A DNA stretch of 64,000 nt from Paraspadella gotoi (GCA_051294375.1 CM119263.1:18748628-18812627), one strand, 5' to 3'; shown: positions 20,145 through 45,916, counted from the stretch's first letter. The notes: generated by a model from the letters alone, not told the origin. Made by a program: numbers and translations.

Positions 20145-21692
20145 ATCTTAATTTTTTGGTATAATTTTTCAAGTTGATCAAGTTTAAAACTAGGATTTAA
20201 CAATTATTATATTGAATCTTGTTTCTCAATTTTTTACGTACATTTTACGTACGCTGCCGGAATCAATCCTTTTCATTTAAAAGGTGGAACAATCGACAAC
20301 CATAACCCATCGAAAAGACTAAACTTATTTTCTTTCTACCTCTTTTTTATTTTTCATCTTTTTTCCCCCAATATTTTCCTAGCTTTATATGAAAGAAACA
20401 GAACAGCTTAAGAACGGAGCAAAAGCGAAGTAATTATCCTCTCAATTAAGTTAATTATTACGAAGGCCGCTTTCGTCCGAGATCACAGATCATCTCAAAT
20501 ATTGCTTTTGGCCTTTTTTTTCTCGAGCTAATTTCATGGTTATTTTCATCGCAAGAGAACTGATTTTTCTTGACAAAGCTTTTTCCATGACTTCATCATT
20601 TTGTTAATAAAACATCCGCAACTGAAGCAGAATTGTGTCAAAGCGATCTCGATAAGGTTCGGCATATTTCTTTAAGGGGACGAAGACGAGAGGACGCGAA
20701 GACTTTATCAGAACTTTTGATTTACAAAATTCGTTGTTAAATAAATAAATATGTCAAATACAAATACGTTTTGATCAAAACTAAAGCCAAGTACATATTA
20801 TTATCTAAAATCAAAAGAATGTTGATTCGTTCTGTCCAATTTACCACTTGACATCATTTGTGTCTCACCTTTACCGAAGACTGAAGGAAGGATCAGACAA
20901 AAAGTTCGCAGCAGTATATTTATATTAGGTTTAAGCTTGAAAAAACTTTTGGAACCCCAAAAATTTATTCAGGCTGTGGTTCGTATACTTCTTAGAACAA
21001 AAAGTTCTCTAGTTTTTATATATATATATTTTTTTAAATGGACGATTATTTCAAATTAATATATTCATAAGCTTAAGTGTTCATTCATAAGTTTTTTCAA
21101 CAATACAGCTACAAATACCGATTTAGCACATTTATCATTACAATTAACATATCACTATTTGTAGTAAACTTTTTTTGCTAAAAAGGAGCAAAAGTTTTCC
21201 AGGTCGCTCCAGAAGACCGGCGACCCGCATCTCGTTCAAGGTCGTTGACTTGCCAAAGATCGTGACCTTTGTTCTTTACTTGTAGTCATTCATTCTCTTT
21301 TCACTTTCTCAGTCGTTCGACCGGTTGATATTCATTCCCCGTCAAGATCTAAGTCCAAACTCCAAAAATGTCTCATAAATATTTCACATTCATTCAAAAA
21401 CAATCCGAAACACTCTTTCTCCGCGAATAACTATTTCAATAATAGTTTTTTCCAAACAGCAAAAAGTATTGTATTGTCTTGTATTGTTTTGTATTTCAAA
21501 GAAAATATTATGATTAATATTTTGCTATTGTTTGAAACCGTTCTTATTACAAAATTTCCTATTCTTAAATTTCTCCTTGTAGAATAATAATGCATTATAA
21601 AAGTCGAATTTTTAAAAATATTTATTCGATATTCAAAATGTTTCAATAACTTTTTATTTTCAGAAAAATCCTTTAAACTTCCTTCAAACAAG

Positions 21693-24600
21693 ATGTCGAC
21701 GAATGCTCGCTTCGAAGGGATCGTCCACGCTGACTTGGAGGCCGTCTGGGCTTCCTTCCGTGGCTTTGGTCGCTCAACCCTCGACTACTGGACCATTCTT
21801 AAGAACGTGACTCTTAAGGGCACCGAAGACGTGCTGGGCGTGGAGAGGGTTTTGACGTCGAGTCGAAACGCCATCACGGAAAGGCTGGAGTCACGTGACG
21901 ACGAAAAACACGTCATGACGTACTCTCTGGTTGGCATCGCTTTTATAAATTTCCCAAATTCAGAAACAATCTCTGAATCTGAATTTAATTTGAGTTAATT
22001 TATATTCAATTTATGATCTGTTAAATATTGTTGCCCTTGAGAAATTTTAAACCCTTATGGTGGACTAAAATCCACCATCCGTTCATCAGCGGCCCTTGGT
22101 GCAGGAGGCAAGTTATTCGCCTCCCAACCCAAAGGTCCGGGGTTCTAGCCCGGTGGTCGCCTTGCAGTTAAGAGGGACGGGTCGCTTAACCCGCCTGTAA
22201 CACGGAGTTACAGCCTGATCCGAAGCTGAGGGACTGCTTATATTGAACGGTTCTGTAACTAATACACAACAATCATTACTGTCTCTTCACCCTTCAGGTT
22301 GGGATCGACCCCAATCCAGGCTTAAATAGTTACCTGACGACAGCAACCTTGACAGAGACGTCTGCTGGCACGACGCGTATCGTAATCGAGTGCAGCGCCG
22401 AATGTTCCAACATTCTGGTGGCCTCTGGTTTTCGCAACAGGCTGGAGACCGTTTCTTATCCGGCCATCGTGAAGGGCCTTAATCTCCTTCACAATCCCGT
22501 CGTGGCCTTTCTCACGATTCGCGATGTCACTGGTTTTAAGATTCCCAAGATGGACAAGTTCTCGGAATCGGATCCTTATGTGAGATTTTCGATAATGGAT
22601 GAAAAGGGTAAGTTCTCTGATGAATTCTGGTTTGCATTTTAAAATTTAAAGTTTTCTCTCACTCAGTATGATTTTTAAGACAATATGCAAATGAGATATT
22701 TATACTAACTTTTATATAAAAAAATTGAAACATGGTTTTACGGGCTTTTTAATGTCGTTATTCCCCCCCAAAAATTGTATAATCGCGGTTTAATGTTGCT
22801 TCTATGGTTTACTTCGGGGAGTTGTTATTTGAAACAATTCCTTTTTTTTTCCGTGAGGTTCCGTCATGGAAACAAAAAGCACCTGTTGTTTAAACAACGA
22901 TCCCAACCCCATCTGGTTCGATGAGATCAACTTTTGCGTCGGCAAAAACTTCGATCGTCTAAGAGTCGAAGTTTATGACGCTGATTTTATGGACGACGAC
23001 GATTTCATTTTCGGCGGGGAACTCATCGTCGGCGAGATCAAAGCGAAACTGGAAGAAAAGGAAAAGGAGAAAAAGGAAGGAAAGGAAAAGGAAAAAGCGG
23101 AGGAAAAGAAAGAGAAGAAAAACAGCATGGAACCGGGTCTTTTCGCCATTTTGGAAAAGGGAGACGCCAAAGGTGCTCGAGTCGAGTTCAACGTCGAGTT
23201 CCTTCTCAGCGAAGGCGTCGCTTTTAACAACATCAACTCCATCGCTTTGCTGGAGAAGCAACAGAACGCGTTGAGAATGATGAGCACACTGGAGGAAACG
23301 AAACAGGCCATCCTCGCCATGCTGCTGCGTTTCGCCGCAGAGCCGCATCACGTGATCGGATTCGATCGATTGAAGCTGGGCTCGCACGATTTGCCAGAAA
23401 TCCCGGGTAAAACTATTAATCTTTATAACATTGTATATTTTTTAAAACATAATAAACGGCTTAAACATAATTTAAATCTTCCTTTAGGATTATGTCAAAT
23501 CCTTCCGATCGACAGAATGCCCAAGCCAAAACTGTTTGCCGGTCTGTTGCGTCGTATGATGGAAGTCGTGTACAGCTTGTCAGGATCCAACCAACGCATG
23601 GAGAACGAATGGACGGCCTTATTCAATCCGGACTACGTTCCCATACCTCATACTGTGGAGATGCTTTCGCTCTGTTGGAAAGACGACGCGGAATTCTGCA
23701 GACAGTTCTTCCAAGGCATCAATCCGCTTCAAGTGAAAGTTGTCGAGAGCGTCGAAGAAATACCGAAGGTTAGTTCGAACAATTAATTTATAATTCACCG
23801 ATCAGCGATCAGTAGGCGATATTTCATTACGTCATTATCATAAAAAAAATTGAATTACCTTTACAGGAAATGAGATCTTTGAAAACCCTGGACGACTCAA
23901 CTCCGATCAAAGAATTAGTGGCCGCAAAAAAGCTGCTTATCGCTGATTTTCACCTATTGGCTGACATTCCTGGACGCAACATGGAAGAAGGCGGCTTTTA
24001 CAAAAATCCAACTCGACCTGAAATTCTGTATTATGCACCAATCGCTCTGTTCTACCGGTATGGTTGGTCTAGTAAATTCTAGTAAATTTTATATACAATA
24101 ATAAAAGAAATTAATCTAAAGAATAAGTTGTGTTAAATAATTGTGGCAATAACGTATAGTGTTATTTCTTTTTTTATTGAAATAAAGGTGTGAAGAAGTC
24201 TTTTCAACCGGACACAACCTGCGTGTTCTTGGGATTCAGTTGACACGATTCGAGGACAAAGAAAACCAAGTCTTTACTCCAAATTCGAATTCGGCCAAAT
24301 GGCTCTACGCCAAGATGATCGTGCAAAATGCGGACGCCCAGGTTATTAGAAAAAAATCTATAAAAGTATATACATTATTTTTTTAAATAATCTTAAGTAC
24401 TTGTCGTTTATTTCTTCATTCATGCTAGATGATGCAATTCGTGAATCATATGGGCATCGCGCATTTTTGTCTCGAGCCAATCGCAATCGCTTTCCACAAC
24501 TGGAAATTTGGTCTCGATTCAGAAACTTATCAGAACTCAACAGTCTTGAAAATGTTGGGTCCTCACCTCGACAATGTGCTCGGAATCAACTGGTTGGGAA

Positions 24601-26602
24601 AAAAACTTTTAATTGGAGAAAGAATTTCTGTCTCCGATAGGCTTGGGCCTGGTAAGGAAGTTATGTTTGTTTGCTAAGTTATGTACTGTGGCGGTATATT
24701 CACACCGCCTCACGTCCACCATCCTTCAGCCAAATCCATTGGCTCAGAGGGGGAACACACCATCCCAAGCGTAGTGTTCCATCCACAGTCCTCACGACTT
24801 CCCTCTGCGTTGGCAAAGCGAGACCGTCCTAGGGTAACAACCCCCGTGACTGGAGGCGTCACTAAGGGACGGAAGCCCCCAAAGCCAACAGTGAGATGCC
24901 CCATCCCAATGGGCATCACAGGCAACCCGGCTGTTGCCATAGTACGAAAATAAAAAGAATGACGACAAACTTTATTTTAGAAAAAAATGTGACATTGTGA
25001 AGCATGATGCCTCACTCTCGTTTACTAATTTTTATTGTCTCTCAGTTACTCAATTAATTTACCGAGTCACTTCTTGACTCTTTCTTTTTCTCTCTTTTTT
25101 CAGTACCAGTACATATGCCCGTGTTCATCCGTTAAGGTACGATCGGCGGGGTCCAGATGCTGAATGAGGCGATGAAATCTTTGGATTACGATGACTTCGT
25201 CTTTCCTCGCAGTCTCGCCAAACGAGGCTTCGGCACCTCGGCGGAGGACGACGGATTCAAGGGATACTACTATAGAGAAGACGGCTGGCTCCTCTGGAGA
25301 ACTTTGAAAAAGTCAGTTCGATTCTTTGAATTTCGAGGCAACCAAAGATTTGAGCATCGTTAGACTTTGACGAACATGAAATTTATTTCAATTTAGTATT
25401 TAAAGCCGAAACTAATCAACCTTTCAACGCGATAATTTCTCCAGATACGCTTCCACCGCCGTCGATGCGACCTTCGAAGAAGATGGCGACGTTGCTAACG
25501 ATAAAAACTGGAAGAAATTCGTCGACGATGTTGCTGACCCGAAACTAGGAAACTTGAAATTTTTTAGGTAATAAGTGACTATTGACTAATCTCTTGTCAA
25601 TAAATTCTCAAAGAATTAAGATGAATTCGATAATTTCATTACAGAACCAAGGAACCCAACGTCTCTGGTGACAAGTGGGAGGGGATGAAGATCGAATCCA
25701 AAGAATCCTTGACGGAATTGTTGACAGCAATCATGTACCAAGCATCGGCTTTTCACGCCGCGCAGAACAATGGGCAGTTTGAACACTTCAGTTTCGCGCC
25801 GAACAAACCAAACTCTATCAAGGTTTATGAAAATTTTATTTCATATAAAGAATGATACAGTAGCATACATCAGCAACAAAATAAACCCAACAAATAAAAA
25901 AAAATTAAGAGGTTAACGCGAAGGAAAACTATGCTACGAGATCATTTCTATATTTTCATAGAAATAAGACAAAACTTTATTTTTCATCAAAGTTAATAGT
26001 TTTATATGTTTTTAAAATTAGTTTACATTTATAGAGTGACTGTATTTTTGCAGCTGGCCATGCCGCCCGCGAACGCGGAGTTAAAGTTAGAGGACGTCAT
26101 GGCTTCAATGCCTGACTTTCGTGAACGGGCTACGACCTGTTTCCTTATACACGCGCTCACGCTGCCCACTGATGAGCCTATGTCCAAAGTCACGGCGCTC
26201 AAGGTACGCATCTTTTTATTTACCAAAGTTTATTAAGTATATGTAAACTCTTTTTTGAGATAAATATAAATATAAATGTGCAGATGTTAAAAGATTTGAT
26301 TACTTGGTACTTGAGCAAAATGAAATTTTATCAAGTTCGTTGTACTTATGCAGAGCTAATGACATTCCACAGTACTTTTCATTTAGTACTAAGGTTAATT
26401 CAACATTTAAACGTGTAATTATTGCGATTTTATGACTTTCTTTTTTCAGGATCTCCTTCCGAACGCTCACGATGAGCTGATGGCCGACCTCGATGTCATG
26501 AAGTCAACGATCGAGGAGAGAAACGATGCCATCAAATCCAACGATGGAATAACTTACGGCTATTTCCATCCTGACGTTTGCAACGCCTCTGTGGATATTT
26601 AA
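21693..26602 (+). CDS. SRPBCC(START/Bet v1-like)-C2-lipoxygenase fusion protein, 12 exons, ~907 aa
   Basis: Exons 21693-21929, 22298-22607, 22858-23406, 23488-23768, 23867-24057, 24188-24341, 24429-24651, 25137-25311, 25445-25567, 25645-25822, 26054-26203, 26450-26602 join via GT-AG introns into one open frame (2724 nt). LOX motifs: WKDDAEFCRQFFQGINP, WLYAK..NADAQ, NHMGIAHFCLEP, YYYREDG.LLW, ASAFHAAQN, C-terminal SVDI*. C2 motifs: MDKFSESDPYV, PNPIWFDE, VEVYDADFMDDDDFI. N-terminus: AVWASFRGF..GVERVL..ITERLESRDDEKHVMTYSLV..TRIVIEC (polyketide-cyclase/PYR-PYL-like SRPBCC pattern). Confidence 0.92.
22041..22289 (+). mobile_element. tRNA-derived SINE-like element (family A, copy 1) in LOX intron 1
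   Basis: tRNA-like head 22089-22160 (A box TGGTGCAGGAGG, CCC anticodon loop, B box GGTTCTAGCC, GCGGCC/GGTCGC stem). The whole block recurs in reverse complement at 34278-34528. Confidence 0.85.
22164..22237 (+). ncRNA. Type-P5 twister-ribozyme-like motif (P2/P4 imperfect)
   Basis: P5 GCAGTT/GACTGC; GA-CGG..TAA-CCC-GC; P3 TGTAAC/GTTACA; loop TCCG-AAG-C, whose CCG can pair with CGG (T1). Confidence 0.6.
24690..24955 (+). mobile_element. SINE-like element (family B) in LOX intron 7
   Basis: GC-rich island in an AT-rich intron. Shares GCCTCA..TCAGCC, GTGAC..GTCACT, GAGAT..ATCAC and GTTGCCATA blocks with the elements at 56319-57066 (-). The tRNA-like head is degenerate. Confidence 0.75.
24809..24889 (+). 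ncRNA. Type-P5 twister-ribozyme-like motif (degenerate P2/T2)
   Basis: P5 GTTGGC/GCCAAC; GA-CCG, mini-P1 TCCTAGGG, TAA; P3 GTGAC/GTCAC; P4 GGG/CCC with loop ACGG-AAG-C (CGG pairs with CCG). Confidence 0.5.
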
Positions 26603-26881
26603 TCGCAACGTTTATTGTGGCGATTACCTTTCCGAAATTGATAACAAAAGGATGAGAAAGTTAAAAGTAATGCATTGTTACTATGTCGCTTAGTCATCAA
26701 AATGTTTTTTGTTAGTATGTACTACGACTTCGGCTTTTATGTTAACTCATTTACATATGGAATCCCTTTTTGCTATAATATATTTCTTAGGCCAGAAAAT
26801 TGCGTTGCTGTCCATGATAAAACCAACCAATCCCATATCGACCTCGGAAACGTCGCGCTACGAAAATGGAATATGACAGGC

Positions 26882-34277: not shown

Positions 34278-34528
34278 TGAAGAGACAGTAATTATTGTTA
34301 TGCGTTAGTGACAGACCGTTCAATATAAGCAGTCCCTGAGCTTCAGGGACACCCGCCTGTAACACCGTGTTACAGGCGGGTTAAGCGCCCGATCCCTCTT
34401 AACTGCTAGGCGACGACCAGGCGAGAACCCCGGACGTTTGGGTTGAGAGTCGAACGACTTGCCTCCGGCCACCAATGGCCGCTGATGATCAGTTGGTGGA
34501 TTTTAGTCCACCATAAGATTTAAATTTC
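34278..34528 (-). mobile_element. tRNA-derived SINE-like element (family A, copy 2)
   Basis: Reverse-complement match to 22041-22289 over the full length, including the upstream TGGTGGA-CTAAAA-TCCACCA hairpin, tRNA head and twister-like body (34329-34406, remodelled into palindromes). Confidence 0.85.
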
Positions 34529-35935: not shown

Positions 35936-38050
35936 ATGTCTTCGTCGTCTTCCCAGCACCACCTCCATCTCCTTTGGGGCGTCGTTCACTATTTCCTCTA
36001 CGTTCTTCTCGCCGCCATGTGCTCGCCCATCTTCCGGGCGTCGTCTTCATTGTCGACGACACAGGTCTTTAGATCGACTTCACTCGTGTAATTGTCACTA
36101 CGTATAGAGACGGCACAAAACAACAACAAAACACAACACAACTTATTTATACTACCGACGACATAAACTGCAGTTTATTGTTAACGACGCTCAATTTATT
36201 ATGAATTTTAACAAGTTCTTAACGGAAATTATAAGGTTCACAACTGTACCACTCATATTTTAATCATTGCAACGAAATTAACATCTCATGATGCATCAAG
36301 TTTCCCTCCTTCCATCCGAAACCTTTAGGCGTTCCAATATCTCTTCATCGGCGAATCTCTCTCAACCCTCCCTGTCCTTCCCATCGCCATCCGCCGCTGG
36401 ACAGTTTCCAGCCCCGCCGACTGGACGACCTACTTGACGGTCGGCTTTTTAATCAACGCCAACTTCCTGATGTGGCGGACGGCAGCGGCGGTGATGCCGC
36501 TTGGCGACTACGCGGCCATAGACGCGTGCGGCGTCCTCTTCGCCCCTTTAGTATCTGCGTTGCTTCGGCGTCGATGCGTCGGCCTGATCGACGCCATCGG
36601 GGCGGCGTTTGCGACGTTGGGAATCGCTCTCGTCACCAGGCCGACCTTTCTATTTCGAGCGACGACGTCGACTGCGGAGATGACCGAAAGCGTCGCGAGG
36701 TAAAATCCATCCACGTCGAGTCTGAGATTTACCTTTAAAGCTCGACCTGGCCGCCGACCAGGAACCTCCGACTTTAAAGTTCACCTGTCTTTTGGTTACT
36801 CTTACCAACAAAATTTTATGGCGACGTTGGAGAAGGAGACAATGTTTATGACAATTTACATTTATTACAATGTAAAACGGGAGAATACTACATGACAATG
36901 AAGGTTTATTCGAGTGAGTGTATCATCCAACGGTGTCGACTTATAAGGAGGAGAGTCAGAAAGACAGAAAAAGAGAAAGAAAGAGAGAGAGAGAAACGTG
37001 GGTCGTAACTCGTAACAAGTGACCCAACGGGGACGAAAAGGTAGCTCGAATAATCGACAGTCCTCCACAATTTTTAATTTTGACACGGTCAAATCAGTTG
37101 AAAGAGTTTCCAAATCCACATTTAATCTATTTTTATTCCGCAGCGACGTTTCACTTTTGGCGACTTCAACCCTAAATTTCGTCCCGGTATACGCCTACTT
37201 CTTCGCCCTCTACGGCGGACTCCTCACGATGGCGTTGCCTTTTATTTTTGCCAAATTCGATCACCTACACTGGTCAAACTTTATCTGCATTCGTGTCTTA
37301 TGCTCCGCGGTAAGTCATTTTAATTATGGTCTACGTATGCATTATGAAATCTTTTTTAAAAGAGAAGGCACATTTTGTTATTCGGTCTCTCTGAAGATTC
37401 CTTTTAGGTGACTAACCGTTACTCAATTTCGTTATTTTTTAATTTTTTTGTTTTTTATACTCTCGCCGGGTTCTGTATTTGGGCACGATTCGCTTCATAA
37501 AAACGTTATCTGACACTAAATTTTAATCATATGATTGCTTCGTCTTTGCTACCATTTCCGGATTTTACTTTCCGGAGACTTTCGACGACGCCTTGGCGAC
37601 GTCCGGCGGCTTCCTCGTCGGCGTCCTCTCCACAATCTACCGAATCGTATCTTGCGCATGCGTCGAGTTGGAGGGATTAGGGTCCGGTACCGCGGGATTG
37701 TCTGGTAAGTGTTGTTATTTCTACTGGGAAAGTGTTATAAAATAGTACTAACAAGCGATAAAACGTTTGAATCCTAATTAGATTTGAATTTTAACTCGCT
37801 GCCACTCCCTTTAAAAACTATACGATTCATAATTGAAATTTGCAAATCTACTACGTCCAAATTAGGCAACTTCATTCACGCGGCAGTCATCCCCTTGACC
37901 GCGTTGTTTTCATTTGCGTTCTTCGGCGCGAGCCCTATTCGTCATCGAAACCGTGGTGTCGTCGTCGTCTTTGTTTTCCATCATTGGGCGACCGCCGCTA
38001 ATTTCTTCTTGGAGAAAAGGACGTTCGGGAATGGCTTGATCAAGCATTGA
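35936..38050 (+). CDS. EamA/DMT-superfamily transporter (SLC35G-like); 3' exons uncertain or frameshifted
   Basis: Exons 35936-36064, 36329-36699 and 37144-37309 splice in frame; further hydrophobic exons at ~37578-37704 and 37866-38050. Exon 2 has MPLGDYAAI...LGIALVTRPTFLF, the SLC35G-type EamA pattern. Confidence 0.7.
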
Positions 38051-38992: not shown

Positions 38993-39064
38993 GGTCCCAT
39001 GGTGTAACGGTTAGCACTCAGGACTCTGAATCCTGCAATCCGAGTTCGAATCTCGGTGGGACCT
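38993..39064 (+). tRNA. tRNA-Gln(CTG)
   Basis: GGTCCCA...TGGGACC acceptor stem, CAGGA-CTCTGAA-TCCTG anticodon arm, GTTCGAATC T-loop; intact 72-nt cloverleaf. Confidence 0.97.
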
Positions 39065-40339: not shown

Positions 40340-43300
40340 TTTAACATACGCCTTAGTGTGAGGGTTCGCCCCTCTCTCCACGCCCTCATACCCACTGACT
40401 CACTGCCTATCGACTCATAGATCCACTTGACCTGAAGGTCTGCAGATGAATCTGATGCACGACCCGAAGCAGAAGGACGTAGAGTTCGAATTTCCGCCCA
40501 ATCGTCGCCCGATGCAGGATTCGAGGGCCGTGACCGAGAAGGCAGCCAGGAGAAAGACTTGGATGTGGCGAAGAAGGAATGAATTAATATACTTTGTACC
40601 AATTGAGTTTTTAGAATGATGAATAGGTTAAAAAATATGGAAAAACATTTCAAAAATCCATTCAAGAATCTGTAATAATATTTAAAAAGTAATTTCAATA
40701 CGTCGGTCTACATAACAAAGTGTCCCTATAAACTCGTCTCCTTTGGGCCGCGCATCCAGATCCATCGGCGGGGATCAAACACCCGCGGGAACAGATGAAA
40801 GTTTTTCTCGTCGCAGAGCCGCATAGCCGAAGTTCGGCACCCTGCACGTGGCGTGCCGCGCGGAGTATGCAGGACGGGCTCCGACCCTCTCATCTGGTCA
40901 CGGGAAAAAGAGGAGATAATCCTCTTTTACATAATTCGACAAGCAAATACAGTACGTCTATACATATCCGTTATAAAGATACAAGAAGACAGAGAGATGC
41001 CAGACGCAGCGTCTCTTTGACGACCGCCTTCAACGTAGGACATATTATAGACAAAGACGTTAAGAAAAAAGGAGAAGAACGCAAGAATGAAGTCAGAGAC
41101 CTCGTCGCGAAAGTTGTCATTTTAATGTTGTGGGTGAGGTTGTGATAAGATAGAGAAGAGATTATCGTAATATATATAGAAAAAACACGTTGAAAGAGGA
41201 TATATAAAGATATACTTGATGGCTAGTAATAGCCCACATTAATATATATATATTATGTATTAGATACTAAGATATAACATAGTGACCAACGCAGCACTGG
41301 TTAAGTCACCACCCTCCCATTTTCCCTCAACAAACGCCAGAAAATTTTGATTTTTTCACTCTAGAAACTGAAAGTCGCTTGTTAAATGTAATACGTAGTT
41401 CCCTTCAACTACAGCTGAAAAAGTAAATATAACGATTCTTTTAATCACATATATTGCCAGAAAGTGCAAAAGGTAGAATTTCTCGTTCACCCTTCGGTCG
41501 AGACTCAGTTCGTAGACGCCCCACAAGAGGGTGTTGGCGGTCGTGTCGACGCCTCCCAAGAGCAACTCTGCGATGTTGGCCATCGTCTGCTCGCGAGAGA
41601 ATCCTTCGCGCGACATCATGTAGGACGCCACAGGTTCGGGGCCCGAGGAAGCCGCTTTAGAGAAGCGGGGCGAGTGTCACAGTGTCACCAAAGAATTGAA
41701 ATGTTTAAAATTAAAGCATGGTTAAGATAAAAGTATATAATGGTTATTTTATTGTAAAAAGATTTAAATTTAATGATCAGCTTAAATATTATATTTTTAT
41801 AAATAACGCTTAATCTGAAACATGATGAGCTTTGTAAATTTTATTCAATTATTATCTCACTGCCTTTCTCACCGTTGTCTACGCGGCTGGCGAAGTTCTC
41901 GACGCATTCCGAGGTGACGGCGTTGATGACGTCCCACGCTTCCATGAATCTGCGGTAGAATCTCGAATTCAACCGCTTGTGAAGCTCCAGCCCCATCTCC
42001 AGCATTATCGTCTCTCGTGTCATGTCTTCCACAGCTGAAATTGGAGAATATTTATATGATTAGAACGAAACTTTTTTTTTATCAATTTATGATTCATTAA
42101 CGTCGTCTACCCTTGACGAAATCTTCCGTCCTCTGCGGAGGATGGTCACCAAGGCAACCGAGTCGCGTCCCGAAGAGGACGTTGGCCGTCGACTCCATCG
42201 CCCACTTGTAGACTTCGACGTGTATTCGGTCGATGCAGCCTACCTGGGCGACGGGAGATGAGCCATTAAGTTGAAATGATTTTAAATGTAATCGATTTTA
42301 ATCATTTCTCACCTTTCTGTTATTTTTCGCTAATTTTTCCCATCGATTCACCGCCTCTTTCGCCGTCACGTCAATCTGATTGGACGAAAGGGTCTTGGTC
42401 AGGATTAACAAAACAAAACAAAACTTTTCTTGTCCTGAACATTTAAATTAAAGACCCACCCAGGGAAGAAACTGGTTAACCTCTTGCGGCCGCATTAGTT
42501 TTTTGTTTGAGCTTTGTCGATTACGCCACCTTAAAAAGAAGTACTTTCTGGCTTTAAATTAAAATTGGTACTATATAACTCGATTTTAAAAAAATCTTTC
42601 ACTTTTGAACAAGCCTCCTTTCCTTACCATTCCTCCCCGTCAGCTGTGATGAGGGAGTTAGGAAGATTTCGTTCTCGTCTCCAGTGCTGCCAACTCGTTA
42701 GCGGCAATCTGGAGAAAACAACAAAATAATATATGCATATATGTATTAAACCTTAAATATCCTTAAAAAAAAACCTCGTTCTGTATGTTAACAACAACCT
42801 TCTAGGAAACAAGGCCTCTTTCCTGAAGAGCTCGGCCACCAAGGCGGGGTTGTTGATGGAGACGAGTTTGGTGAAGCCGAGATTGAGATGAATGACGTCA
42901 CCGAAATCCCGATGGTGATCCAGTTGGAGTTGGTGGAGAGAGGTCATGTATTTGGGTCGGAAAACCTGGAGAGGAAATTGGAGACCGTGTAGAAAATAAA
43001 TTCAAATATGAAAAAATGTATGAATTTTAGTATATTAATGATCATTAAATACATATCGTATTTAGTTTGAAAAGGTATAGAGTGATAATAATAGACCAAC
43101 TCTACCGAACCGAAAGTGATAACTATTAAGTTGCGTCATGCGTATATCGAAAGAAAATAAGCAGCCACTAGACGACGAATCTGTTACGACATGTCCGCTT
43201 GCAAAAAGCGAAAACACTGTCACCTGAACGACGCCGCGAATTCCCCGCAATCCCGGCAAACTTTCCGGATTCTCCAGTTTGCCAAATTCCGGCGCTTCCG

Positions 43301-43442
43301 AGGGAAACGGAGATATTTCCCGGTTGTCGCTGCTCTGCAGTTGCTGCTGTCGCTGCGTCGATTTCCTAGAATCGAATGGACAGTCGTGTGGGCGTCGTTT
43401 ACACGCGGACGCGTGGATGGCGCGTCGAAAGTGCGTTGTCAT
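40340..43442 (-). CDS. Cytochrome P450, mitochondrial clan (CYP27/24/12-like); 3' exons frameshifted, 3' end uncertain
   Basis: Eight in-frame exons (43442-43224, 42965-42799, 42708-42628, 42529-42460, 42375-42313, 42243-42111, 42034-41873, 41654-41491). Arg-rich presequence-like N-terminus with no TM anchor; DGEEWWRNR (C-helix); KWAMES..VLFGTRLGCL; I-helix ELLLGGVDTTANT. Downstream: K-helix LKAVVKETLRL (~41033-41001), FDPRRW (~40780-40762) and heme motif WLP[F]GHGPR[S]CIGRR (~40548-40502, Cys codon 40516-40514) broken by single-base insertions. Confidence 0.85.
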
Positions 43443-45916
43443 GGAGACGCGAAGAAATGCTTTTGCTGGATTTTAATCGGAGTGTTATGATTGTCACTTA
43501 ATTATGATTATTTTTTCTGTGTAAAATCCCAAATTATCTGTATCTTGCATTAGTTTTACAACATTCAAAAAGTTTTTAATAATTTCTTTGGCTAATTTAG
43601 TGTTAATTTAGCTGAATTATTTTTTCTTTCTTGAACGATGGTTTTTGGTCGATGAGGATAGGAGAAAAAGAAACAATAATAATGAAAAACATACGAAGCT
43701 CAATAATATAAGACGAATAAGGAGCAAACCAAGCGCATTTTCTCCACATGGATCATTAACGAAATCCTAAACATATTAATAAGCGTGGCTGAAAATCAGT
43801 TTCCGACTTCTTTAGATCGTAGCGTATATATTTTTTATAATTTTTTTCCGAGAAAACGTGAGAAAAAAAAATTTTATGCGTCTTTGCTCTGAGGATGACG
43901 TTTTTCTTAGAAATAGAAAACGAAGAATAATCGATATATGGGATTGTGTTTCGTTGCGAGATCGGCGAAACTCGGCGGGAGGCAAAGAAGAGCGCCTCAC
44001 GAGACGAGAAGTTGATGTGATTCTTTTGCCTCTGTTGCCACCGTTCCACTTTTTCTCTCTCTCGATAACTTAAGTTATTTTTTTAGGCCGAGAACTCGAG
44101 TCAGGTTGACCACAATTGTATAGCTTGAAGGTTGGGCCGCATTGAAGATGACTCGAGCGGAATCCCGCGGCGGAGAAAAGCCTTCTTAACTTCGAAATAA
44201 AAGAGCATTTGCCGACGGGGGACGAAAGATATATATAGGACGATTTGACTATTGCAATTTTTCTAAATTTATTAAAGATATTTGTCGGTATGTAATATTT
44301 CAATACGGCTTGATTCTACTTTTACCCGATTTAACCGATTCAATTGATGGCTCCAACTTTTTTATTTATTTTATTCATTCACTATCTCTTTTTTATCTTT
44401 TTAAATACAACATTTCTCTTGTATGTTTTAAAAACTCTCGTAAAAAAATAGTTAATTCTGAGGTCGACAGGCCGTTTATTTATTATTTTACCTTTACTGT
44501 ATTCATTTAAATACTAAAGATGTTTTTGTTTCCCCACTTCCAGCTCTACTAGGTGACTCTAGAGAGACTCAATGCTTTCGGCAAAAACTGTTTTGAAACA
44601 GAAGAGCAGCGTTTGACGCGGGGGAGGACGGGATTACCCATTCCCAATTGAGAAGACAAAATCCGGAGTTTTCAAAGGGATTACATGTTATTATGAAGTC
44701 AGCTTTCGAAATAAACTATTTCCCTAAGAAATAGAGAAATGCCGTCATAAATATGATTCCGAAAAAGGGGAAACCGCAAAACTCCGTGAAAGGATTTCGA
44801 ACAATTAGTCTCTTGAGCTGGGTAAATTATACAAACACTTTATCCGGGATTCAATCTTGAAGCATATGGATATCAAAATTATAAAAAACCCTATTCAAGC
44901 AGGTTTCTGTCGAGGTCGATCCACTCAGGAACACTTGATTAGATTGTCGGAAGATATTATGAGAGGGTTTCAAAAAGATAAAATAACAGTTGCAATCTTT
45001 CATGATGTGGAAGATGCCTTTAACAGAGTTTGGCATGATGGTTTGATTATAAAGATGAAGGAACTGGGCTTTCCAGACAGTCTCATTCAACTAATTGACT
45101 CATATCTTACAAATAGATTTGTTACAGTTAGGATCGGAGATAGTAACTCGAGAAAAATTTACATGTCTTGTGGTTGTCCGCAAGGAGGAATTATATCACC
45201 AGACCTCTTCTCTATTTACGTATTCGATATCACCAATAAGGTTCCGAAGATAGTAGAGAATAGTCAATTTGCGGATGATACGGCAAACTGGGTTACAGAA
45301 GTGTCCTTGGAGTTGTGTCAATTTGAAATGAAGAGGACAATGGATGCGATCCAGAGGTGGTGCAGTAAATGGCGCCTTAAATTAGCTCCAGATAAATGTC
45401 AGTTAATTATTTTTTCAAGGAGACGAAGAGCGTTGTTCGGTAGTCTGGACTTAGAATTATTTGGGGTTAAAATTGGGATTGTTCAGGAAGCAATTTTTTT
45501 AGGGGTTCCCTTCGATAGTAAATTAAAGGGGAATACTCACATTAATAATTTATGTAAACGTACGATACAGAGATGTGGAGTATTGTCCAAATTACGATTT
45601 AAATGCAAATATCTGAGTACTAAAATTATGTTAGAACTTTATAAGGTATTCGTTATTTCACTGTTAGAGTATAGCATGAGCTGTTTTTGTACTATTTTCT
45701 AACTCTCTAAGGAATAAATTAGAGACAGTTGAATTTAGATTTTTAAAAAGCATATCTAATGTACCAAGATCAATGTCAAATTTCTTAGTTTTGGAATTAT
45801 TTGGGTTTAAAACCATTGCGTATTAGAATAATTAAGAGGGCACATTTGCAAATGCGAGGTTTGATTGAAAAAACGCCCCTTTTACCTAAATATATTGAAA
45901 ACATGAATGATTTATA

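What the first reader, a model, noticed from the sequence alone, without database searches (positions are those of the whole stretch)
21693..26602. Lipoxygenase with an SRPBCC + C2 N-terminus instead of PLAT: candidate two-step oxylipin enzyme
Seen: one intact 12-exon frame encoding an SRPBCC-like domain (~aa 1-145), a C2 domain with Asp-rich Ca2+ loops (DKFSESD; DADFMDDDD) and a full LOX domain retaining iron ligands (H-x4-H, HAAQN, terminal Ile), with no PLAT domain. Known: animal LOXs are PLAT-LOX, and the classic fusion is coral catalase-type allene oxide synthase-LOX. SRPBCC folds bind lipids, and some are catalytic (polyketide cyclases, onion lachrymatory factor synthase). From unverified memory, SRPBCC-LOX is reported in a red alga and C2-LOX in fungi; I do not recall all three domains together in an animal. 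Inference: C2 gives Ca2+-triggered membrane docking, and SRPBCC delivers fatty acid or converts the hydroperoxide product.
Basis: partly seen in the sequence, partly recalled or inferred. Interest (0 to 1): 0.88.

Follow-up and report, generated by a model that had tools for sequence, protein, structure and literature searches.

The report
Amphioxus-type lipoxygenase in an unnamed animal
This is an intact, spliced gene for a fat-oxidising enzyme (lipoxygenase) carrying a lipid-pocket domain and a membrane-binding C2 domain, a build already described in amphioxus and also present in lampreys and bacteria, so it is a divergent new member of a known family, predicted to make the mirror-image (R) product, rather than a new kind of enzyme.

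Summary
Observation confirmed. Twelve exons give a stop-free 907-aa SRPBCC–C2–LOX protein without PLAT; all 11 introns appear as GT-AG joints in one run's contigs. Iron ligands H581, H586, H785, N789, I907 and five C2 aspartates are present. The novelty claim fails: a preprint reports C2 plus 1–5 SRPBCC domains on amphioxus LOXs, and lamprey, amphioxus, cyanobacterial, myxobacterial and Shewanella proteins with the same three Pfam domains align with it at 24–31% identity. One relative, Shewanella violacea LOX, has been assayed. This scan also noted the build earlier in a cyanobacterial genome. In trees the gene sits on a long branch inside the animal clade (99/99). What is new: a divergent subfamily with its own introns, in an animal whose phylum I could not fix, and Gly at the Coffa site where 19 of 19 relatives have Ala (R product predicted). 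The two-step idea is weak: in the red-algal relative the extra chemistry maps to the LOX pocket and deleting the first N-terminal barrel raised volatile output. Likely a Ca2+-docked LOX with a ligand-binding SRPBCC module.

The parts
21664..21692 (+). Transcribed leader before the ATG; starts right after an AG acceptor at 21663 and is open in frame, so an upstream exon is not excluded
   Evidence: record 1 starts at 21664 with 3 unaligned letters; no cover 21000-21620; no upstream SRPBCC exon found by tblastn
21693..21929 (+). Exon 1, aa 1-79, first half of the SRPBCC (PYL-like helix-grip) domain; R52, E63, Y77
22298..22607 (+). Exon 2, aa 80-182: second half of SRPBCC (to about 22495) fused in frame to the first C2 strands and loop 1 (D165, D171)
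22858..23406 (+). Exon 3, aa 183-365: rest of C2 (loop 3 D223, D225, D231; to about 23204), Lys/Glu-rich insert aa 246-271 (23046-23123), helical linker
23488..23768 (+). Exon 4, aa 366-459, start of the LOX domain; intron 3 before it is 81 nt and stop-free
23867..24057 (+). Exon 5, aa 460-522, LOX domain
24188..24341 (+). Exon 6, aa 523-574, LOX domain
24429..24651 (+). Exon 7, aa 575-648: iron ligands H581 (24447) and H586 (24462); Coffa-site Gly631 (24597-24599)
25137..25311 (+). Exon 8, aa 649-706
   Evidence: joint 24650>25136
25445..25567 (+). Exon 9, aa 707-747
25645..25822 (+). Exon 10, aa 748-807: HAAQN with iron ligands H785 (25754) and N789 (25766)
26054..26203 (+). Exon 11, aa 808-857
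26450..26793 (+). Exon 12: coding to the stop at 26600-26602, terminal Ile907; 3' UTR covered to 26793
22055..22262 (.). High-copy interspersed repeat inside intron 1 (SINE-like by eye); second copy at 34305-34516
   Evidence: depth about 68,000; blastn 86% over 213 nt
24686..24945 (.). Second, unrelated high-copy repeat inside intron 7
   Evidence: depth about 56,000

Best explanation
The gene encodes an intact SRPBCC-C2-lipoxygenase of the family already described in amphioxus and found in lampreys and bacteria; it likely works as a single-site iron lipoxygenase that would dock on membranes through its C2 domain when Ca2+ rises, is predicted to give R-hydroperoxides, and likely uses the SRPBCC pocket to bind a lipid ligand rather than to catalyse a second step. 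Shown: gene structure, splicing, domain order, iron ligands, family membership, Gly631, five C2 aspartates. Inferred: Ca2+ binding (canonical C2 loop spacing recalled; loop 3 aligns to cPLA2 C2), R stereochemistry (Coffa Gly/Ala rule), that SRPBCC tunes substrate supply or activity as the N-terminus does in red-algal PhLOX, and that any cleavage or ketol side products would come from the LOX pocket.
For: End-to-end blastp of the spliced protein: P0077 33.7% over 919 columns, Nostoc 28.8%, Coleofasciculus 29.2%, Branchiostoma 26-29%, Shewanella 28-29%, lamprey 31% LOX plus 26% N-terminus. Same three Pfam families in P0018, P0020, P0021, P0023, P0028, P0036, P0037, P0059, P0060, P0062, P0064, P0065, P0069, P0077 (SRPBCC below cut-off in P0077). 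Model of lamprey P0037 (pLDDT 80.7) matches helix-grip folds at 1-147 (Z 18.8-20.4), true C2 domains at 148-269 (Z 16.5) and LOX domains at 293-823 (Z up to 36.9). Tree: family vs 5 other bacterial LOXs 100/100; window+P0077 with 8 chordate rows 99/99, 100/99 without outgroup. H581, H586, H620 in 20 of 20 relatives, H785, N789 in 18 of 18. Gly631 aligns with the Gly of coral 8R-LOX; 19 of 19 relatives have Ala. P0059 carries A739 and L770, the numbers the paper gives for SvLOX, which makes 12-HpETE and volatiles. In PhLOX, N575L and Q777L cut AOS activity and first-barrel deletion raised volatiles.
Against: No activity data for this protein or for any animal member that I saw. The SRPBCC pocket is strongly conserved (14 invariant columns in 8 rows over exon 1; R52 18 of 18, E63 17 of 18, Y77 18 of 18), which fits a catalytic site as well as a binding site. 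Deleting the whole PhLOX N-terminus abolished HPL products. The window departs from the family at M576 (His in 19 of 20) and K632 (Arg in 19 of 19), so family chemistry may not carry over. The linker profile does not score above shuffles (1.7 vs 4.2 bits). The Coffa rule has exceptions (recalled). The long branch (stem 1.18, tip 0.82) weakens placement within the animal clade. The window's own spliced protein was not folded; the exon 3-4 piece folded alone gave pLDDT 36.
Confidence: 0.72

Rival explanations
1. Two-step enzyme: the SRPBCC domain is a catalyst, like onion lachrymatory factor synthase or polyketide cyclases, that would convert the hydroperoxide or an unstable allene oxide made by the LOX domain.
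For: R52 and E63 align with the Arg and Glu of PYL receptors, which the LFS paper equates with catalytic R71/E88; LFS, norcoclaurine synthase and hydroxynitrile lyase are among the fold matches of the lamprey domain (Z 17.4-18.8); the pocket is conserved from bacteria to chordates; PhLOX and SvLOX have HPL activity while SRPBCC-less CcLOX does not.
Against: The same residues are fully conserved in PYL receptors, which are not enzymes; Tyr91, the likely LFS Y114 counterpart, is found in 0 of 18 relatives at that column; deleting PhLOX's first barrel increased volatiles, side activities map to LOX-pocket residues, and PhLOX2 keeps SRPBCC but lacks HPL; family members without the adjacent SRPBCC exist (P0027; five amphioxus LOXs).
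Confidence: 0.1
2. Multifunctional LOX like PhLOX/SvLOX: a single iron site would give hydroperoxides plus cleavage aldehydes and ketols, with the N-terminus shaping the channel.
For: SvLOX is a family member with LOX, hydroperoxidase and HPL activity; the Q777 counterpart Q792 is kept (18 of 18).
Against: The N575 counterpart is A573 (Asn in 16 of 20 relatives) and the F826 counterpart is L838 (mapped through SvLOX numbering), both tied to PhLOX's extra chemistry; Coffa Gly changes the oxygen channel.
Confidence: 0.13
3. The full three-domain protein is minor or absent: the main mRNA would start at Met164 and lack SRPBCC.
For: No contig spans the whole gene; a second contig enters at 22545 with at least 255 nt of AT-rich sequence not found in the window and with stops in frame before the ATG at 22550.
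Against: Record 1 (depth 33.6) runs from exon 1 through the C2 start with 0 differences; the join is a 30-nt graph overlap that a paralog sharing that 30-mer would also make; starting at Met164 would cut the first C2 strand; P0077 is the full build on one 2816-nt contig.
Confidence: 0.05

Closest known systems
Amphioxus C2-like + SRPBCC lipoxygenases (Branchiostoma LOX1 AHW81486.1 and paralogs; bioRxiv 10.1101/2022.05.18.492404)
   Same: Domain order SRPBCC-C2-LOX, no PLAT, 26-29% identity end to end, same animal clade, several paralogs; B. belcheri/B. floridae LOX1 also keep acidic residues in both C2 loops
   Different: One SRPBCC rather than up to five; Gly not Ala at the Coffa site; long branch; 1 of 8 inferred chordate intron positions matches
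Lamprey LOX XP_032817193.2 / LOC116946267 (823 aa) and hagfish fragment
   Same: Exactly one SRPBCC + C2 + LOX; modelled fold confirms the three domains
   Different: Lamprey C2 lacks the Ca2+ aspartates; Ala at Coffa site; different introns
Shewanella violacea SvLOX (SVI_2441, BAJ02412.1) and red-algal PhLOX/PhLOX2 (PMC11507377, PMC4319731)
   Same: SvLOX has PF10604+PF00168+PF00305 and aligns over 6-907 at 28%; PhLOX is 898 aa with two N-terminal barrels and a helical linker (its second barrel as C2 is my inference; PhLOX was not in my sequence set)
   Different: Lacks the N575 and F826 counterparts; Gly at Coffa site; full Ca2+ ligand set; intron-bearing animal gene
Cyanobacterial and myxobacterial SRPBCC-C2-LOX (Coleofasciculus, Trichocoleus, Nostoc TCL26-01, Prochloraceae, Pendulispora)
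   Same: Same build, 27-29% identity
   Different: AU test rejects grouping the window gene with cyanobacteria (p 0.002) or with the Shewanella/myxobacterial rows (p 0.016)
Unnamed Logan protein P0077 (885 aa) and ENA exon fragments P0001-P0024
   Same: Closest relatives: 34% overall, 41% in the LOX domain, HAxQNN motif, shared introns after aa 459 (10 of 10 fragments) and 522
   Different: P0077 has Ala at the Coffa site and no C2 aspartates; sources unnamed
Coral catalase-type AOS-8R-LOX fusion and PLAT-LOXs of animals
   Same: LOX fold, iron ligands, Ca2+-dependent membrane docking as a principle, Gly-type R specificity of coral 8R-LOX
   Different: No heme catalase-like domain, no PLAT barrel

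Membership tests
Non-heme iron lipoxygenase (PF00305) | LOX catalytic domain by profile | tested here: met
   34.1 bits on exon 10, cut-off 23.6; 403 bits to relatives' profile vs -0.5 shuffled
Non-heme iron lipoxygenase (PF00305) | His, His, His, Asn and C-terminal Ile iron ligands | tested here: met
   H581, H586, H785, N789, I907
Non-heme iron lipoxygenase (PF00305) | Dioxygenation of polyunsaturated fatty acids | not testable with these tools
   needs enzyme assay
SRPBCC-C2-LOX family (amphioxus, cyclostomes, cyanobacteria, myxobacteria, Shewanella) | PYL-like SRPBCC then true C2 then helical linker then LOX, no PLAT | tested here: met
   fold of lamprey relative; linker alone did not score above shuffles
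SRPBCC-C2-LOX family (amphioxus, cyclostomes, cyanobacteria, myxobacteria, Shewanella) | End-to-end homology and a LOX domain inside the family clade | tested here: met
   100/100 against 5 other bacterial LOXs; no PLAT-LOX or plant LOX was in the tree
Canonical animal PLAT-LOX | N-terminal PLAT barrel | tested here: not met
   no PLAT hit in 11 of 11 exon frames; aa 1-300 assigned to SRPBCC and C2
Coral-type AOS-LOX two-step fusion | Catalase-related heme domain N-terminal to LOX | tested here: not met
   N-terminus fully assigned to SRPBCC and C2; no catalase hit
Ca2+-binding C2 domain | Five acidic ligands in loops 1 and 3 | tested here: met
   D165, D171, D223, D225, D231; canonical spacing recalled, loop 3 aligned to cPLA2
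Ca2+-binding C2 domain | Ca2+-dependent phospholipid binding | not testable with these tools
   needs liposome assay
Catalytic SRPBCC of the LFS type | Arg-Glu dyad plus Tyr (R71, E88, Y114) | tested here: inconclusive
   R52/E63 mapped only through PYL alignments; LFS not among the 60 of 63 profile hits shown; Tyr91 not conserved; dyad also in PYLs
Catalytic SRPBCC of the LFS type | Turnover of a substrate by the isolated domain | not testable with these tools
   needs enzyme assay
PhLOX-type multifunctional LOX | Asn575 and Phe826 positioning residues | tested here: not met
   A573 and L838, mapped through SvLOX numbering

The most novel reading that the evidence does not exclude
The helix-grip domain, whose Arg52-Glu63-Tyr77 pocket is kept from cyanobacteria to chordates, is a cryptic enzyme that takes the LOX product and rearranges it, making this family a heme-free two-step oxylipin synthase; and this R-type copy comes from an animal phylum outside the chordates, so the family entered animals once, early, and was lost in most lineages. 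The non-chordate host alone is roughly an even bet; the catalytic SRPBCC is the unlikely part.
Probability: 0.08. Interest if true: 0.75.

Novelty: new member of a known kind. Interest (0 to 1): 0.3.

Why it matters
The architecture is not new, so the headline claim falls. Two smaller points are worth keeping. First, the amphioxus preprint says such LOXs occur in no metazoans beyond amphioxus and jawless vertebrates; this gene, its expressed paralogs and unnamed relatives form a third, fast-evolving, intron-rich branch of the same animal clade, and if the host is not a chordate the 'amphioxus novelty' is older. Second, it is the only sampled member with Gly at the stereo-determining site and one of few with a full Ca2+ ligand set, so it is a good test protein for what SRPBCC and C2 do in this family, for which I saw enzyme data only on algal and bacterial members.

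Tried and rejected
Word-indexed protein searches with exon 3-4 (444 candidates) and exon 10 (7 candidates) found nothing; weak evidence only. Scans of genome contigs and the first metagenome scan confirmed no locus; the second gave 1 locus of 173 pattern matches, L006, an intronless 938-aa frame not followed up. Plasmid tblastn with exon 3-4: no match; with P0089: 8 LOX-domain-only records, 5 used as outgroup. ESM Atlas: C2/RasGAP look-alikes under 0.9 for exon 3-4, no usable hit for P0059. Single-sequence fold of exon 3-4: pLDDT 36, not used. No whole genome held, so genomic paralogs could not be counted; no paralog or extra upstream SRPBCC exon inside the window. No listed holder is on record as RNA. 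Rfam found only a tRNA, giving no lineage marker. Exon 8 from 25104 rejected (stop; RNA joint at 25136). Spliced-leader reading of the 5' end considered and left open. Host phylum not determined. Literature searches: lipoxygenase+SRPBCC 6 papers; amphioxus+lipoxygenase+C2 domain 1 (29); lipoxygenase+C2 domain+PLAT domain+invertebrate 0 (43); lipoxygenase+C2 domain+Fusarium 16 (48); +C2-like 1 (92); lipoxygenase+lamprey+amphioxus+horizontal gene transfer 2 (102); lipoxygenases/polyketide cyclase/C2 domain/domain architecture, 3 of 4 terms, 2 (103); none of these listings showed a non-chordate animal member, but the library lacks most subscription papers. Rows left out of trees: near-identical cluster members and all exon fragments except hagfish P0071; also the outgroup, P0028, P0085, P0067.
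Full report
Gene structure. Reading the window and joining exons by coordinates gives 12 exons from 21693 to 26602, 2724 nt, 907 aa with a single terminal stop. My first model, with exon 8 starting at 25104, had an in-frame stop; the RNA joint moves the acceptor to 25137. Of 3 runs listed, X1 holds 0.53 of the sampled words, close to the exon share of the stretch, and its contigs show 11 of 11 introns as GT..AG joints. Record 1 (546 nt) covers 21664-21928 and 22297-22574 with no differences; record 3 (2465 nt) starts 62 nt before the end of exon 2 and runs to 26793. They overlap by about 30 nt, and a further contig with unrelated AT-rich upstream sequence enters at 22545 (not in the window). 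So no single contig spans the gene, and the support is one run of one study. The SRPBCC-C2 border, however, lies within exon 2, which is one genomic frame.

Domains. Scanned exon by exon (11 frames), exon 1 gives Polyketide_cyc2 (20.3 bits, under its cut-off), exon 3 gives C2 (25 bits, over) and exon 10 Lipoxygenase (34.1 bits, over); no PLAT. Exon 1's best solved-structure matches are PYL/PYR receptors (E 0.05-1.4). Profiles built from relatives, with the window and P0077 left out, score the spliced protein at 88.4 (SRPBCC, aa 4-141), 17.7 (C2) and 403 bits (LOX) against maxima of 8.3, 3.3 and -0.5 in 200 shuffles; the linker scored 1.7 against 4.2.

Host. The window is intron-rich with AG microsatellites. 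A neighbouring P450 on the minus strand matches only mitochondrial-clan structures, CYP11A1 and CYP24A1, in 5 of 5 hits; that this clan is animal is recalled knowledge. The phylum was not determined.

Relatives. A full HMMER scan with the exon 3-4 frame gave 30 hits. The spliced protein aligns with named proteins of Trichocoleus/Coleofasciculus, Nostoc, a Prochloraceae bin, Shewanella, myxobacteria, Branchiostoma (24-29% end to end) and lampreys (31% LOX, 26% N-terminus). Fourteen of the proteins I scanned carry PF10604, PF00168 and PF00305 together; one Shewanella record is even named 'Lipoxygenase/Polyketide cyclase/C2 domain'. The closest is unnamed P0077, 885 aa on one 2816-nt contig, 33.7% over 919 columns. 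A model of lamprey P0037 (pLDDT 80.7) matches helix-grip proteins at 1-147, true C2 domains at 148-269 and LOX domains at 293-823; this is a relative's model, not the window's.

Literature. bioRxiv 10.1101/2022.05.18.492404 (passages, abstract, sections 11 and 18; supplements not seen) states that all amphioxus LOXs of this group have a C2-like domain, most have one to five PYL-family SRPBCC domains, that lamprey and hagfish have homologs, and that none are seen in other metazoa; it cites earlier reports by Yuan et al., which I did not read. PMC11507377 (parts 1 and 2 of 6 plus passages) assays PhLOX and SvLOX; P0059 matches its SvLOX numbering at A739 and L770. PMC4319731 (passages) reports SRPBCC on PhLOX2. 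PMC3669278 (passages) found no C2 motif in Fusarium FoxLOX and gives the Coffa Gly/Ala rule. bioRxiv 10.1101/142687 (passages) gives the LFS residues.

Origin. On 524 LOX-domain columns (24 rows), the family is separated from 5 other bacterial LOXs at 100/100, the window pairs with P0077 (100/100) and both fall with 8 chordate rows (99/99); without outgroup 100/99. AU tests reject joining them to cyanobacteria (p 0.002) or to the Shewanella or myxobacterial rows (p 0.016 each, apparently the same constrained tree). The branch is long and its place inside the animal clade is open (76/76). Ten of 10 unnamed exon fragments end at the window's intron 4 and P0077 shares 2 of 2 testable positions, whereas only 1 of 8 positions inferred from lamprey and amphioxus isoform differences matches (aa 747), which chance could give. 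At least three other X1 contigs match C2 and LOX parts at about 80%, so the host expresses paralogs. One origin in animals with heavy intron turnover fits best; separate uptake from an unsampled donor is not excluded.

Mechanism. All five iron ligands are present, so an active dioxygenase is likely. Gly631 aligns with the Gly of coral 8R-LOX where 19 of 19 relatives have Ala: R products are predicted. The C2 keeps D165, D171, D223, D225, D231; lamprey, P0077 and most bacterial rows lack several, while two amphioxus rows keep acidic residues in both loops. Ca2+-triggered docking is therefore likely for this copy but is not a family rule. The SRPBCC pocket is conserved (R52 18 of 18, E63 17 of 18, Y77 18 of 18), which shows it matters, but the Arg-Glu pair is shared by catalytic LFS and non-catalytic PYLs. 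In PhLOX, AOS activity depends on N575 and Q777 in the LOX pocket, removing the first barrel raised volatiles, removing both abolished them, and PhLOX2 has SRPBCC without HPL. That points to a regulatory or substrate-binding N-terminus. The window has Ala and Leu at the N575 and F826 positions, so even PhLOX's side chemistry may be absent. I put a single-site, Ca2+-docked LOX at 0.72, a multifunctional LOX pocket at 0.13, a catalytic SRPBCC at 0.10 and an SRPBCC-less main form at 0.05.

Verdict. Real, intact, expressed, and a new member of a known family. Residual interest lies in the unnamed host, the divergent subfamily and the predicted switch to R stereochemistry. Interest 0.3.

Noticed in passing
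window about 40430-43403, minus strand: Mitochondrial-clan cytochrome P450 (best solved matches CYP11A1, CYP24A1) with an Arg-rich N-terminus; by eye the heme-motif exon near 40480-40560 has frame breaks, so a pseudogene or assembly errors.
   Followed up: partly
window 36329-38047, plus strand: EamA-type (SLC35-like) transporter gene fragments, Pfam 28.1 bits against a 28.2 cut-off.
   Followed up: partly
window 44809-45699, plus strand: Reverse transcriptase fragment, RVT_1 94.6 bits, LINE-like by eye.
   Followed up: no
window 38993-39064, plus strand: tRNA-Gln(CTG) gene.
   Followed up: no
window 22055-22262, 34305-34516 and 24686-24945: Two unrelated repeats with summed contig depth above 50,000 in run X1; the first has a tRNA-like head by eye; no Rfam match.
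   Followed up: partly
window 21930-21941 and 22298-22309: The first 12 bases of intron 1 match the first 12 of exon 2 at 9 positions, against 1-5 for the other 10 introns; possibly a trace of intron gain by duplication.
   Followed up: no
window 21663 and about 43425: Both the LOX and the P450 have an AG acceptor 20-30 nt before the ATG, and the LOX contig starts exactly there; 5' UTR introns or trans-splicing.
   Followed up: partly
window 22545-22574: A contig with at least 255 nt of AT-rich sequence absent from the window joins here just before ATG 22550: a paralog sharing 30 nt, or an SRPBCC-less form.
   Followed up: partly
P0036, P0037 (lamprey): Current lamprey entries carry an SRPBCC domain, which the amphioxus preprint said was not identified in jawless vertebrates; the older 668-aa entry lacked it.
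   Followed up: yes
L006 3708-6524: Intronless 938-aa frame in a metagenome contig matching the LOX start at 34%; probably a bacterial family member.
   Followed up: no
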